This document shows positions 1 through 8,288 of a stretch of DNA of 10,615 bases, in pieces. Where the stretch lies: IMG/VR virus record IMGVR_UViG_3300028991_000014, positions 1 through 10,615 of that record. One strand, 5' to 3'. The notes beneath the pieces are model-generated. The model saw only the letters and a list, made by a program, of their open reading frames with translations, was not told the DNA's origin and searched no databases. A program made the translations under genes and the position numbers. Source of the DNA: a virus (Duplodnaviria > Heunggongvirae > Uroviricota > Caudoviricetes). Positions within the stretch are counted from its first letter, which is position 1. Each line of letters starts with the position of its first letter.

Positions 1-135
1 TTCCTGGAAACGGGCGCGCTAATCGAAAAGGATCGGCATGGATTTGTCAGATGTGCGCTATCCGGTGAAATGCTGGCAGTAAATCCTGAACAGATAGATG
101 CATTGATAGAATTTCTGAAAGGGATCAGGGACTGA
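1..135 (+). CDS. hypothetical protein, C-terminal fragment (gene enters the window from the left)
   Basis: Frame 1 is open from base 1 to TGA at 133-135 (...EFLKGIRD*), followed directly by a hairpin/T-run terminator. The 44 aa give no recognisable family. Confidence 0.4.
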   Translation, partial: FLETGALIEKDRHGFVRCALSGEMLAVNPEQIDALIEFLKGIRD

Positions 136-145
136 GCACCCATAC

Positions 146-179
146 AGCCGGAGCAATCCGGCTTTTTGTAATTTTTTGT
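146..179 (+). terminator. intrinsic terminator downstream of the partial upstream ORF
   Basis: Stem AGCCGGA (146-152) / TCCGGCT (157-163) with GCAA loop, followed by TTTTGTAATTTTTTGT (164-179). Confidence 0.55.
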
Positions 180-291
180 AAATTATTTGTTCGTGGTCGT
201 TCCACGTTGTTCATTGACCGGATCGGCATATTTTACCCGCCCTGAATCATGATTATTCTCGCCAGTGGTGCCAGGACGCTGGGGCCACTTT

Positions 292-333
292 CCCGCCTGT
301 TAATGTGCTCACCAATATTCATTACCAGGCGGG
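292..333. promoter_or_regulatory. 14-bp inverted repeat with 14-bp spacer upstream of the capsid gene (operator or RNA-structure candidate)
   Basis: CCCGCCTGTTAATG (292-305) and CATTACCAGGCGGG (320-333) are reverse complements with one mismatch. No T-run follows on either strand, so it is not a simple terminator. Confidence 0.3.
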
Positions 334-389
334 AAAACGATCGGTGCGATTGCTGATTTCCTTATGAAAAACGGTTGAGTTTTTGCCGC

Positions 390-427
390 GTCCTGGAGTT
401 CCTTACTTAACCCCAGGACTTTTTTTT
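390..427 (+). terminator. terminator-like hairpin plus T8 abutting the capsid start codon (possible regulated terminator or attenuator)
   Basis: Stem GTCCTGG (390-396) / CCAGGAC (413-419) with an inner GTT/AAC extension, followed by TTTTTTTT (420-427) and then ATG at 428. Confidence 0.3.
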
Positions 428-1585
428 ATGCCGAGAATAATCGAATTACGCCAGCAGAAAACCGCCATTAAAAATCAGATGCGCGACATGCTGGAGAACG
501 CGGAAAAAGAAAACCGCAGCCTTAACGATGCAGAGGGCGCAAAATTTGACGAATTACGCGCTAAAGCTGAATCCCTCGATAAAGACATTTCCCGCCTTGA
601 AGCCATTGCAGACGAAGAGCGCAGCAAGCCAGGTAAAAGCAGCCAGACCACTGACCCGGCAGAACTCCGCAACTACATCCTGACAGGTGAAACCCGCGCA
701 TTAAGTACAGGTGTCCCCGCTGATGGTGGTTATACCGTTATCCCTGAACTGAACACCGAAATCATGCGAATGCTGGCGGATGAGTCCACCATGCGCCGCA
801 TCTGTACCGTGAAAAAAATCAGCAGCAACGAGTTTAAGCAGCTTGTTTCCGCTGGCGGTGCGGTCGTTAACCACGGTGAAGAGGGTAAGGCACGCGAACA
901 GACCAGCACCCCGCAGATTAACGAGGTGAGCATTAAGCTGTATCCGGTCTATGCGTACCCGCGCACCACACAGGAAATCGTGGATTTTTCCGATGTGGAC
1001 ATCCTTTCATGGCTGACGGGCGAGATTGGCGACACCTTCACGGAAACCGAAGAAAGTGATCTGGTTGTGGGCGACGGTGACAAAAAAGCAAAAGGTTTTT
1101 TATCCGTACCCCGTGCAGAGAAGAACGACAAAGAACGTGATTTCGGAACGTTGCAGGTTATCAAGCCCGTTGATGATCTTGCCTGGACATCTGCGGACCC
1201 GCTGATCGATCTGAAATTTGCATTACGTAAAAAATACCGCAAGAACGCGGTATGGGTGGTTAACTCCACGACGGCGGCAAAACTCCAGAAGGTGAAGAAT
1301 GCGAACGGGGATTATATATGGCGTGACCGTTTACAGGCGGGTGATCCTGACACATTGCTGGGCCTTCCGGTCGAATATCTGGAGTTTATGCCGGATAACG
1401 TTATTGCCCTGGGCGACTTTAAACGCGGTTACTACATCGTTGATCACGAAACAGGTGTTCGCACCAGACCGGACAACCTGACAGAACCAGGATTCATCAA
1501 AATTTTCACGCAAAAATATTTAGGCGGTGGCGTGGTGGATTCGAACGCGATCAAGATTCTGGAACTGCCACAGGACGACGATTAA
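428..1585 (+). CDS. phage major capsid protein, HK97 family
   Basis: 385-aa product with a charged, coiled-coil-like N-terminal segment (delta-domain-like) followed by a capsid-type body; sits at the head of a protease/portal gene set. The ORF track begins at TTG 383; ATG 428 is chosen as start, but there is no clear SD so the start is uncertain. Confidence 0.8.
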   Translation: MPRIIELRQQKTAIKNQMRDMLENAEKENRSLNDAEGAKFDELRAKAESLDKDISRLEAIADEERSKPGKSSQTTDPAELRNYILTGETRALSTGVPADGGYTVIPELNTEIMRMLADESTMRRICTVKKISSNEFKQLVSAGGAVVNHGEEGKAREQTSTPQINEVSIKLYPVYAYPRTTQEIVDFSDVDILSWLTGEIGDTFTETEESDLVVGDGDKKAKGFLSVPRAEKNDKERDFGTLQVIKPVDDLAWTSADPLIDLKFALRKKYRKNAVWVVNSTTAAKLQKVKNANGDYIWRDRLQAGDPDTLLGLPVEYLEFMPDNVIALGDFKRGYYIVDHETGVRTRPDNLTEPGFIKIFTQKYLGGGVVDSNAIKILELPQDDD

Positions 1586-1595
1586 CAGCATACAG

Positions 1596-1620
1596 AAGGG
1601 GCTAAAAAGCCCCTTTAGTG
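1596..1620 (+). terminator. hairpin between capsid and protease genes (possible partial terminator or attenuator)
   Basis: Stem AAGGGGC (1596-1602) / GCCCCTT (1609-1615) with TAAAAA loop, followed by an interrupted T-run (TAGTGTTTTATG). Confidence 0.3.
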
Positions 1621-1640
1621 TTTTATGGGTGAAAAAAATT

Positions 1641-7317: not shown

Positions 7318-7644
7318 CTGATTACTGGTTGGAATTGTTCCAGAGTGCAAATTTACACTATGGCCTAACCCGTTGATATTTCCGGCAACCTCAATTTGAG
7401 GAGGCAGGGAACATCCCCTAAATCCGGTGATGTATTCGGCCCCTTTAACGGGTATTACGATAATCATAACACCTACCGAACAGGTAAAGGCCACCAGCCT
7501 GATTAACGTTTAACCGGAAAAAAAGCCAGGTATCCAATCTCGATATGTGGATCCCCATATCGACAGCAATGCCCCCTTAAAATTATCCGCCTTTATATTT
7601 CTTGTGCCTATTTGTTCCACGTTGTTTCATACAGTGCGCCGAAC

Positions 7645-7712: not shown

Positions 7713-7877
7713 TCAATGTGTTAAGTGAAATAAGTTATATATAACAGCAATAAATAATGCGAGAATAAACGGCACGATGATCTCGGCGGCAAAACGGATA
7801 CCGCAGAGAATAATGACCAGCATTCCCAACATAATGACGATTTTTAGGCCATTGAGCGTGATGATCGGCTTTGCCAT
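7713..7877 (-). pseudogene. tqsA: tqsA (ydgG) 5' fragment truncated by the element insertion
   Basis: Minus-strand translation from ATG 7877 gives [46 protein letters not shown], which matches the TqsA N-terminus as recalled. The frame then diverges into AT-rich element DNA (YNLFHLTH, stop at 7713-7715). Divergent from mdtJ as in E. coli. Confidence 0.7.
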
Positions 7878-8288
7878 GCTTGTCCCCGTTTTTTCTTCCT
7901 TTGCTAATAATAATGTCTTTTTCGCTCCGTCATCATAACGAAAATCAAACCGCTCAGGTAAAGAAGTGAAAATATTTTGAGTTAATTCTTAAGCTATGAT
8001 ACAAATCAGGCGTGTTCAACTACCGAGGACAATTATCATCCGCGATGACGAGAAGCAACACTGCGGATAATTGTAATATTATGGACAATTTGTTCAGGAC
8101 GTTATTTTCAACATTTACCCATCTTCGTACCTCATCCACTATCTTGCTCGTAGGTGAGCAGCACTGGCGCAACGCGCTTTAGTCCTTTCTTCTGCCTAAG
8201 CTTGCCCTATGCGCGGGGCTTGACCACTTTACTTTGGTTTCGCTGAATTAAGCGAAAATTAAAATAATTCTCTTGCAGGAGAAGGACA

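What the first reader, a model, noticed from the sequence alone, without database searches (positions are those of the whole stretch)
390..430. Terminator-like hairpin and T8 tract placed directly against the capsid start codon, with no Shine-Dalgarno sequence
A 7-bp GC stem with a 3-bp inner extension is followed by eight T residues ending at the base before ATG 428. Any transcript reaching the capsid gene must pass through this structure, so capsid and downstream packaging genes may depend on antitermination or another read-through mechanism. That would fit a satellite whose packaging operon is switched on by a helper or element-encoded factor. Alternatively, translation could begin at the upstream TTG 383, placing the hairpin inside the coding region.
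Basis: partly seen in the sequence, partly recalled or inferred. Interest (0 to 1): 0.45.

Follow-up and report, generated by a model that had tools for sequence, protein, structure and literature searches.

The report
Terminator hairpin gating satellite capsid operon
A phage satellite of E. coli makes a short, highly folded RNA from an always-on promoter, and that RNA ends in a transcription-stop hairpin placed directly against the capsid gene, so the head and packaging genes are reached only by polymerases that read through the stop.

Summary
The hairpin is real: G390-C419 is a 7-bp stem, then an A397/C412 mismatch, then 3 more pairs, then T420-427, then ATG 428. A stem of this kind followed by seven or more T arose in 8 of 2000 shuffles of the window.

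The window is a capsid-forming PICI (CP-933C/Sp7 type). Published Cappable-seq data for EDL933 place a primary transcription start 206 nt upstream of the capsid ATG. That position is window A222, and the start was seen in 7 of 8 uninduced conditions. The hairpin and T-run are therefore the 3' end of a 206-nt structured leader (z = -5.2), and there is no room for a promoter behind them.

Stem and T-run are kept in 22 sequence variants and in a diverged subtype whose loop was replaced.

ATG 428 is the start, not TTG 383. All homologues begin there, and the T-run varies between T7 and T8.

"No SD" is not quite right. AGGA at 415-418, 9 nt before the ATG, lies in the 3' arm of the hairpin.

My best reading is an intrinsic terminator or attenuator of the lambda PR'-tR' type that gates the packaging operon. 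How read-through happens is unresolved. No Q-like factor was found. TTGTTC repeats that look like binding sites for the island regulator AlpA overlap the promoter. This is a new member of a known kind, of moderate interest.

The parts
146..169 (+). Terminator 1. It follows the upstream small gene (phrog_1957 family, stop codon 133-135). The hairpin is AGCCGGA-GCAA-TCCGGCT, followed by T5.
   Evidence: different but equivalent terminators at the same place in L083 and L087
176..183 (+). TTGTAAAT box in an A/T-rich stretch, at -46 to -39 from the mapped start (the position of an UP element). It is conserved upstream of capsid genes in many genera.
187..212 (+). Triple direct repeat TTGTTC-gtgg-TCGTTC-cacg-TTGTTC with a 10-bp period. 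It spans the -35 to -10 region of the mapped promoter. Inferred to be binding sites for the island's Xis-like regulator AlpA.
   Evidence: The motif TYGTTYN4TYGTTY occurs 3 times in the window and 5 times in L001, against 0.07 expected. Copies lie near attL, upstream of alpA, at this promoter and near attR, and in sister islands.
187..222 (+). Promoter of the leader. The -35 is TTGTTC (187-192), the spacer is 17 bp, the -10 is TTCATT (210-215; TTCACT in EDL933), and the start is A222.
   Evidence: Cappable-seq start at EDL933 1687918, which is 206 nt before the capsid start at 1688124, seen in 7 of 8 uninduced conditions
222..427 (+). A 206-nt structured leader RNA. It has hairpins at about 264-288, 289-336 and 339-358, a long-range closure at 224-228/384-388, and the terminator as its 3' domain.
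   Evidence: Minimum free energy -73.9 kcal/mol, z = -5.15, 0 of 200 shuffles as stable. The diverged L083 subtype gives z = -4.75. No Rfam match.
232..259 (+). Candidate second promoter, untested. The -35 is TTTACC (232-237), the spacer is 16 bp and the -10 is TATTCT (254-259). It would place the TTGTTC repeats at about -54 to -79.
   Evidence: Both hexamers are kept in the L083 subtype (TTTATC / TATTCT) while 6 of 16 spacer bases differ. No start was mapped here in uninduced cells.
271..279 (+). CCAGGACGC, a perfect complement of 388-396 (the 5' arm of the terminator plus 2 nt). Possible antiterminator strand.
   Evidence: Sequence. Conserved in both subtypes. It wins in silico only if the RNA starts at 268 or later.
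390..419 (+). Terminator hairpin: 7 bp, a 1x1 mismatch, 3 bp, and an 8-nt loop.
   Evidence: Natural variants keep pairing: C412T creates an A-U pair, and C413T and C411T give G-U pairs. The L083 subtype keeps the stem with a new loop.
415..418 (+). AGGA, a weak Shine-Dalgarno-like motif 9 nt before the ATG, sequestered in the 3' arm of the hairpin.
   Evidence: invariant in all variants
420..427 (+). T8 tract (T7 in many relatives), ending at the base before the start codon.
   Evidence: T7 in 26 loci, T8 in 15 loci
428..1585 (+). HK97-type major capsid gene, the first gene of the packaging operon. It is followed by protease, portal, head completion protein, connector, HNH, TerS and TerL.
   Evidence: Pfam PF05065, E = 2e-61, and the other families. 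PGAP uses the same start. M1 is invariant in 13 homologues.
1595..1626 (+). Second terminator-like hairpin (GAAGGGGCT-AAAA-AGCCCCTTT, then a T-rich stretch) between capsid and protease.
7602..7627 (+). Copy of the triple repeat (TTGTGC-ctat-TTGTTC-cacg-TTGTTT) near the right end of the island.

Best explanation
The hairpin and T-run form an intrinsic (Rho-independent) terminator, and it is the last 38 nt of a 206-nt leader RNA. A promoter that is active without induction (start at A222) makes this leader continuously. Most polymerases stop in the U-tract, one base before the capsid AUG. The capsid, protease, portal, connector, HNH and terminase genes are therefore transcribed only by polymerases that read through. 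In read-through mRNA the same hairpin holds the only SD-like motif (AGGA) in its 3' arm and leaves a U-rich tract in front of the AUG, so it probably damps translation as well.

What is shown:
- the structure, its conservation, and its rarity by chance
- the position of the primary 5' end
- the absence of room for a downstream promoter
- the start codon

What is inferred:
- that termination actually occurs in vivo
- that induction overcomes the gate through the island regulator AlpA acting at the TTGTTC repeats in the promoter, helped by island replication and by a leaky terminator

Whether read-through also needs a dedicated antitermination factor or an alternative leader fold is open.
For: - Structure and statistics.
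- Transcription start: a primary 5' end 206 nt upstream, in 7 of 8 uninduced conditions in EDL933, whose leader carries the same hairpin, T8 and ATG. The T-run abuts the ATG, so no promoter can lie between them.
- Leader folding: the leader folds far better than shuffles, with the terminator as a separate 3' domain. The probability of the terminator stem is above 0.99 for 5' ends from 222 to 267.
- Conservation: stem and T7/T8 are kept in 22 distinct leader variants from 41 loci, and most changes preserve pairing. They are also kept in a subtype whose capsid is only 70% identical and whose loop is entirely different.
- Frequency: about 360 of 5426 complete E. coli genomes carry this leader.
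- Context: the element is a cf-PICI whose cycle needs AlpA. AlpA-type repeats overlap the promoter and recur at the island ends and upstream of alpA.
- Spontaneous production of tail-less capsids without a helper phage fits a constitutive promoter with a leaky gate.
Against: - No 3'-end mapping, Northern blot or RNA-seq coverage was available, so termination is predicted and not observed.
- The 8-nt loop and the internal mismatch suggest a terminator of only moderate strength.
- Sister lineages have hairpins at the same place without a T-run (class A in 31 loci, and class B). A start-proximal hairpin can therefore be selected for a reason other than termination.
- No Q, N or RfaH-like factor was identified in the island.
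- The -10 of the mapped promoter is poor, and it is not kept in the L083 subtype (TTCAGC).
Confidence: 0.6

Rival explanations
1. Translational or structural 5'-UTR element only. The hairpin sequesters the weak SD (AGGA) or protects the mRNA 5' region. The U-tract serves as a binding or standby site for ribosomal protein S1. Little transcription termination occurs.
For: AGGA lies in the 3' arm, 9 nt before the AUG. Related islands place T-less hairpins 4-7 nt before the same start codon, or carry a 14-nt complement of the start region, and most lack a strong SD.
Against: A 5-G-C stem directly followed by 7-8 U is the canonical terminator signature and is rare by chance. The T-run is at least 7 in all 41 loci and in both subtypes. 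A constitutive start upstream of genes that should be mostly silent calls for a transcriptional stop.
Confidence: 0.15
2. The 206-nt RNA is a stand-alone regulatory small RNA, a by-product turned regulator like lambda 6S or StxS. The hairpin with its U8 tail is simply its terminator and Hfq-type 3' end. On this view, gating of the capsid is secondary.
For: The start is constitutive. The fold is very stable and conserved. The 3' hairpin with a long U tail is preceded by a U-rich stretch. There is precedent in EHEC prophages.
Against: No Rfam family matches. No target or Hfq-binding data were found. The internal U-run is not conserved (GAGUGUUUG and GAGUCUUG in variants). This explanation is compatible with the main one and is not exclusive of it.
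Confidence: 0.15
3. Leader riboswitch or attenuator with a built-in antiterminator. Bases 271-279 (CCAGGACGC) pair with 388-396 (GCGUCCUGG). This prevents the terminator from forming and also frees AGGA. The switch would be set by which promoter is used or by an RNA-binding factor.
For: A 9-nt perfect complement, longer than the 7-bp terminator stem, is conserved in both subtypes. In silico the antiterminator dominates (P = 0.5-0.8) when the RNA begins at 268-271, close to the start predicted for the second candidate promoter.
Against: For all 5' ends from 222 to 267 the terminator has P > 0.99. There is no sequence variation in either strand, so covariation cannot be tested. No start is mapped near 266. 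No leader peptide is supported: the 35-aa ORF is not conserved and lacks an SD.
Confidence: 0.07
4. The hairpin lies inside the coding sequence because translation starts at TTG 383.
For: The frame is open from 383 in this window.
Against: M1 at ATG 428 is invariant in 13 homologues from several genera, and none has an N-terminal extension. T7/T8 length polymorphism and loop replacement would shift the frame. PGAP starts at 428.
Confidence: 0.01

Closest known systems
Lambdoid late-gene control: PR' promoter, 6S/StxS short RNA, tR' terminator, Q antitermination
   Same: A promoter that is active in the uninduced state. A short structured RNA of about 200 nt that ends at an intrinsic terminator. 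All late (head and packaging) genes lie behind that terminator. A protein-binding element lies within the -35/-10 region.
   Different: No Q-family protein was found in the island. The repeats in the promoter match the island's small Xis-like AlpA, not a Q-binding element. The terminator touches the start codon of the first late gene and contains its SD-like motif. Read-through may simply be leak combined with higher gene dosage.
P. aeruginosa AlpA/alpBCDE antitermination
   Same: An intrinsic terminator lies immediately upstream of the first gene of the controlled operon. A regulator site lies between -35 and -10. The regulator has the same name.
   Different: P. aeruginosa AlpA is a protein of more than 140 aa with a 21Q-like fold (PMC9371919). 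The PICI AlpA is 62 aa and belongs to Pfam PF05930. It matches only PDB 8c3t and no antiterminator structure. The shared name is not homology.
P2 Cox / 186 Apl / P4 Vis: small excisionase-type proteins that also regulate promoters through in-phase direct repeats
   Same: A small Xis-like protein. Direct repeats with a 10-bp period occur both near the attachment sites and in promoters. Control of a satellite.
   Different: Binding of AlpA to the TTGTTC repeats is inferred from their distribution only. No terminator is part of those systems.
Terminator-type expression platforms of riboswitches and attenuators
   Same: A terminator at the end of a long structured leader, close to the start codon. 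An upstream strand is complementary to the 5' arm of the terminator. The SD is hidden in the same hairpin.
   Different: No ligand domain, leader peptide or known RNA family was found (Rfam negative). The alternative fold is not favoured for the mapped transcript.

Membership tests
Intrinsic (Rho-independent) terminator | G+C-rich stem-loop directly followed by a U-tract on the transcribed strand | tested here: met
   7-bp stem with 5 G-C, an inner extension, -14.1 kcal/mol, and U8 with no spacer. Found in 8 of 2000 shuffles.
Intrinsic (Rho-independent) terminator | Lies inside a transcription unit, downstream of a start on the same strand | tested here: met
   Cappable-seq start 206 nt upstream in EDL933
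Intrinsic (Rho-independent) terminator | RNA 3' ends form in the U-tract in vivo or in vitro | not testable with these tools
   No Term-seq or 3'-end tables were held for EHEC
Lambda-type Q antitermination module | Constitutive promoter, short leader and terminator ahead of the late genes | tested here: met
Lambda-type Q antitermination module | A Q-family antiterminator encoded next to the promoter | tested here: not met
   No island protein is annotated as Q or matches a Q family. The adjacent 74-aa protein (phrog_1957) has no Pfam family and no PDB fold match.
Lambda-type Q antitermination module | Sigma-dependent promoter-proximal pause and a Q-binding element | not tested
   A -10-like CATATT occurs at +6 to +11, but such hexamers are common.
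P. aeruginosa AlpA antitermination | Regulator homologous to PA0907 AlpA (21Q-like fold) | tested here: not met
   PICI AlpA is 62 aa and PF05930. A PDB sequence search finds only 8c3t. PA0907 is described as having more than 140 residues and a 21Q-like fold.
Attenuator/riboswitch with antiterminator | Mutually exclusive antiterminator helix supported by conservation or covariation | tested here: inconclusive
   The 9-nt complement 271-279/388-396 is conserved, but it is invariant, so no covariation is possible. It is disfavoured for the mapped transcript.
Attenuator/riboswitch with antiterminator | Known aptamer or leader peptide | tested here: not met
   Rfam gave 0 matches at E <= 1. The small ORFs are not conserved and lack an SD.
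Capsid-forming PICI (cf-PICI) | int, alpA and primase, plus capsid, protease, portal, connectors, HNH, TerS and TerL. No tail or lysis genes. About 15 kb. | tested here: met
   97% identical to Sp7/CP-933C, the prototype EcCIEDL933.
Hfq-type small RNA | Terminator hairpin with a long U tail and experimental Hfq binding or a target | tested here: inconclusive
   The 3' module is present. No binding data were found.

The most novel reading that the evidence does not exclude
The leader is a self-contained switch that depends on promoter choice. The constitutive transcript from A222 folds so that CCAGGACGC (271-279) is masked and the terminator forms. When AlpA occupies the TTGTTC repeats it blocks that promoter and activates the downstream one (-10 at 254-259). 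The shorter RNA then exposes 271-279, which pairs with the 5' arm of the terminator. That abolishes termination and at the same time frees the AGGA for translation. No protein antiterminator would be needed. In addition, the terminated 206-nt RNA could act in trans, like StxS or IsrK.
Probability: 0.08. Interest if true: 0.75.

Novelty: new member of a known kind. Interest (0 to 1): 0.45.

Why it matters
cf-PICIs are satellites that build their own heads and borrow only tails. How their packaging operon is kept quiet and then switched on is not described in the papers I could read.

A constitutive promoter followed by a terminator set against the capsid ATG gives a concrete gate that can be tested. 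It could explain two reported behaviours: dependence on AlpA, and spontaneous production of tail-less capsids without a helper phage.

It also predicts an abundant RNA of about 200 nt from Sp7/CP-933C in O157:H7. That RNA would be comparable to the StxS RNA made at the Shiga-toxin phage late promoter.

The mechanism class itself is classical.

Tried and rejected
- Rfam at E <= 1 gave no family.
- The generic terminator scan missed the site because of its loop limit.
- Transferring function from P. aeruginosa AlpA was rejected. The two proteins are unrelated.
- The conserved 74-aa protein just upstream (phrog_1957) was tested as a possible Q-like factor. Only 23 representative relatives were found. 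The AlphaFold model is confident (pLDDT 90), but it has no significant PDB fold match. This was a dead end.
- The leader-peptide idea (35-aa ORF at 249-356, and MKNG at 364-378) was rejected. There is no SD, the ORFs are not conserved in the L083 subtype, and they are absent from a Sakai small-ORF list.
The viral-contig scan gave the useful variants.
- Covariation in the window-type leader could not be assessed, because there is too little variation.
- The 14-nt complement of the start codon in Xenorhabdus relatives is conserved (12.4 of 14 positions paired). It shows no significant covariation, since 203 of 1000 column shuffles reach the observed value.
- Term-seq and translatome supplements were not available or held nothing for this locus.
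- One literature search was wasted on locus tags.
- Another PICI type shares the upstream gene but has an ordinary leader with a good SD. The device therefore belongs to this capsid module, not to PICIs in general.

Full report
**Observation.**
The sequence at 390-430 reads GTCCTGG-A-GTT-CCTTACTT-AAC-C-CCAGGAC-TTTTTTTT-ATG. RNAfold returns the described hairpin as both the minimum-energy and the centroid structure. It has 7 bp with 5 G-C, an A397/C412 mismatch, 3 inner pairs and an 8-nt loop. The energy is -14.1 kcal/mol, z = -2.66.

The generic scan did not list the site, because the mismatch makes the enclosed segment longer than its loop limit. In my own test, a perfect 7-bp stem with at least 4 G-C directly followed by at least 7 T occurs once in the window. 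It occurs in 8 of 2000 dinucleotide shuffles on either strand. This is the only run of T>=7 on the + strand. No U-tract follows the hairpin on the minus strand.

One detail of the finding needs correcting. AGGA at 415-418 lies 9 nt before the ATG, a workable spacing for a weak Shine-Dalgarno sequence. It sits inside the 3' arm of the hairpin.

**Context.**
The ORFs behind the hairpin are an HK97-type capsid, prohead protease, portal, head completion protein, connector, HNH, TerS and TerL. In the closest complete genome they follow int, a 62-aa AlpA, a primase, SSB, a PerC-family protein and small unknowns. All are on one strand, and the island is inserted in tqsA.

The region is 97% identical to prophage Sp7 of Sakai and to CP-933C of EDL933. 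CP-933C is the prototype capsid-forming PICI, EcCIEDL933. About 360 of 5426 complete E. coli genomes carry this leader.

The cf-PICI papers I could read say nothing about a promoter or terminator for the packaging operon. They do say that alpA is required for induction and that AlpA is an activator that also activates its own gene. They report that a strain overexpressing alpA is used to produce particles. They also report that tail-less capsids are produced spontaneously without a helper phage.

**Start codon.**
Thirteen capsid homologues at 67-74% identity, from Escherichia, Citrobacter, Morganella, Salmonella, Proteus, Xenorhabdus and Photorhabdus, all begin at the methionine encoded by ATG 428. 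None has an N-terminal extension. PGAP uses the same start.

Among 41 loci with this leader the T-run is T7 in 26 and T8 in 15. In a diverged subtype the loop has a different length. Both facts are incompatible with a reading frame running from TTG 383, so that alternative is rejected.

**Where transcription starts.**
Table S5 of a Cappable-seq study of EDL933 (PMC10469882) lists one gene-specific primary start for the capsid gene EDL933_RS08700. It is at 1687918 on the + strand and was present in 7 of 8 conditions: exponential and stationary phase in LB, M9, acid and salt, all uninduced. The gene starts at 1688124, so the start lies 206 nt upstream. In the EDL933 sequence it is the A of CAGGATCGG, which corresponds to window A222.

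The geometry fits a sigma-70 promoter. The -35 is TTGTTC (187-192), the spacer is 17 bp and the -10 is TTCATT (210-215; TTCACT in EDL933). An A/T-rich stretch that includes a TTGTAAAT box lies at -46 to -39. No other start is listed between that point and the ATG.

The hairpin and T-run are therefore the 3' end of a 206-nt leader.

**The leader.**
RNA 222-427 folds to -73.9 kcal/mol with z = -5.15, and 0 of 200 shuffles fold as well. It has hairpins at about 264-288, 289-336 and 339-358, and the terminator forms a separate 3' domain.

A subtype found with a capsid that is only 70% identical (L083-L086) has a leader that has diverged in many places, and it still folds with z = -4.75. That subtype keeps three segments:
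- TATTCTCGCCA..TG.TGCCAGGACGCTGGG
- the stem of the second hairpin
- TTGCCGCGTCCTGG ... CAGGAC-T8-ATGCCGAGAAT

The loop of the terminator is completely replaced.

A scan of viral contigs gave 22 distinct leader variants. Within the hairpin:
- C412T turns the A/C mismatch into an A-U pair.
- C413T and C411T give G-U pairs.
- One variant has a G/G mismatch.
- One variant has a 1-nt insertion.

The T-run is never shorter than 7. Variation is too low for a formal covariation test.

**Relatives with other leaders.**
Eighty loci from other genera were recovered with the capsid alignment. They show that the 5' boundary of the capsid gene is a mosaic point:
- 31 loci have a conserved hairpin, TGGTTTC-a-CGT ... 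ACG-GAAACCA, that ends 4-5 nt before the ATG and has no T-run.
- 8 loci have CTGCATG ... CATGCAG followed by AGGCACC-ATG.
- 36 Xenorhabdus-type loci have a terminator 65-75 nt upstream, plus a 14-nt segment complementary to AACACCAUGAAAAA. On average 12.4 of 14 positions are paired, against about 7.5 in shifted registers. Column shuffles reach the observed value in 203 of 1000 trials, so there is conservation without proven covariation.
- A few loci have a T6 terminator about 45 nt upstream.

Structure at or around the capsid start is therefore a recurrent theme, and most of these genes lack a strong SD. This keeps open a translational role for the window's hairpin. Only the window type combines the hairpin with a long T-run.

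A different PICI type shares the upstream small gene and its terminator, but it has an ordinary leader with a good SD.

**Who might act on the promoter.**
The promoter is spanned by TTGTTC-gtgg-TCGTTC-cacg-TTGTTC, three direct repeats with a 10-bp period. The motif TYGTTYN4TYGTTY occurs 5 times in the 19-kb locus, against 0.07 expected, and 0 of 200 shuffles reach that count. The copies lie next to the left end, between int and alpA, at this promoter, and near the right end. In the window it occurs 3 times, including a second triple repeat at 7602-7627. Sister islands show the same distribution.

Repeats near both attachment sites, upstream of the autoregulated alpA gene and in the late promoter are what one expects for a small excisionase-type protein that also regulates promoters, such as P2 Cox, 186 Apl or P4 Vis. 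That comparison rests on my own knowledge, and notes that AlpA is remotely related to Vis. I therefore infer that these repeats are AlpA sites. Nothing here tests binding.

The P. aeruginosa antiterminator that is also called AlpA is a different protein. It has more than 140 residues and a 21Q-like fold. The PICI AlpA is 62 aa, belongs to PF05930, and matches only PDB 8c3t. Function must not be transferred by name.

No Q-like protein was found. The conserved 74-aa protein encoded just upstream (phrog_1957) gave a confident model but no fold match.

**Mechanism.**
The best-supported reading is that the hairpin and U-tract act as an intrinsic terminator or attenuator. It ends a constitutively made leader one base before the capsid AUG. 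This is the same logic as lambda PR'-6S-tR', and as the terminator placed immediately upstream of alpB in P. aeruginosa. It insulates the packaging operon from a promoter that is active in uninduced cells.

How polymerases get through is unresolved. There are three possibilities:
- Leak through a moderately strong terminator, multiplied by AlpA-dependent activation and by island replication. This fits the reported spontaneous capsid production.
- An unidentified factor.
- An alternative leader fold.

For the third possibility, CCAGGACGC (271-279) is a perfect 9-nt complement of the terminator's 5' arm plus two bases. That is longer than the 7-bp terminator stem, and pairing would also free AGGA. 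However, for RNAs that start anywhere from 222 to 267 the terminator has a probability above 0.99. The antiterminator wins (0.5-0.8) only for starts at 268-271.

A candidate second promoter (-35 TTTACC at 232-237, -10 TATTCT at 254-259) is conserved in both subtypes and would start transcription near 266. No start has been mapped there.

A second terminator-like hairpin sits right after the capsid gene, at 1595-1616.

**Verdict.**
The proposed dependence on antitermination is plausible but unproven. The TTG 383 alternative is rejected, and 'no SD' needs qualifying.

This is a new example of a classical kind of control, found in a satellite family where it had not been described in the papers I could read. 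Interest is moderate.

Noticed in passing
window 187-212 and 7602-7627; L001 1859-1874, 3255-3270 (- strand), 16694-16709: TTGTTC-type direct repeats with a 10-bp period occur at the late promoter, near both ends of the island and upstream of alpA. They are far above chance (5 observed against 0.07 expected). They are probably binding sites of the Xis-like AlpA. The copy at the right end is followed by CAT, like the late promoter, and may be a second promoter.
   Followed up: partly
window 1595-1626: A terminator-like hairpin (GAAGGGGCT-AAAA-AGCCCCTTT, then a T-rich tail) lies between the capsid stop codon and the protease gene. It may set the capsid:protease ratio or act as another read-through point.
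   Followed up: no
L087:4958-5488 (also L088-L090): Sister cf-PICIs carry a ProQ/FinO-domain protein where this island has the PerC-family gene (pchE in Sakai). ProQ/FinO proteins are RNA chaperones that recognise terminator hairpins with U tails.
   Followed up: no
L003-L081, last 75 nt before the capsid ATG: Related islands have swapped the 3' end of the leader for other structures at the capsid start. These are a conserved TGGTTTC...GAAACCA hairpin (31 loci), a CTGCATG...CATGCAG hairpin (8 loci), or a 14-nt complement of the start region (36 loci). Most have no strong SD.
   Followed up: partly
window 1-135; L001:8911-9135: A small conserved protein (phrog_1957, 74-86 aa) is encoded just upstream of the leader in several island types. 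The AlphaFold model is confident (pLDDT 90), but it has no Pfam family and no PDB fold match.
   Followed up: yes
window 364-371 versus 422-429: AUGAAAAA upstream can pair with the U-tract plus the AU of the start codon. It resembles the ATGAAAAAA start of capsid genes in other lineages. It is not conserved in the L083 subtype.
   Followed up: partly
window about 7800-7960 versus EDL933 1681-1697 kb: In the window the island sits in tqsA, with mdtJI downstream. In EDL933 the next TSS entry after the island's genes is phoQ. The same packaging module and leader may therefore be coupled to different integration sites. In some genomes similarity to the window begins only at about 141.
   Followed up: partly
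EDL933 NZ_CP008957.1 1692589: Cappable-seq also lists a start assigned to the large terminase gene in two conditions. This suggests an internal promoter in the packaging operon.
   Followed up: no
L245 and L271 (viral-contig loci): Two natural variants weaken the hairpin: a 1-nt insertion in the 3' arm and a G/G mismatch at 396/413. They could serve as natural tests of terminator strength.
   Followed up: no
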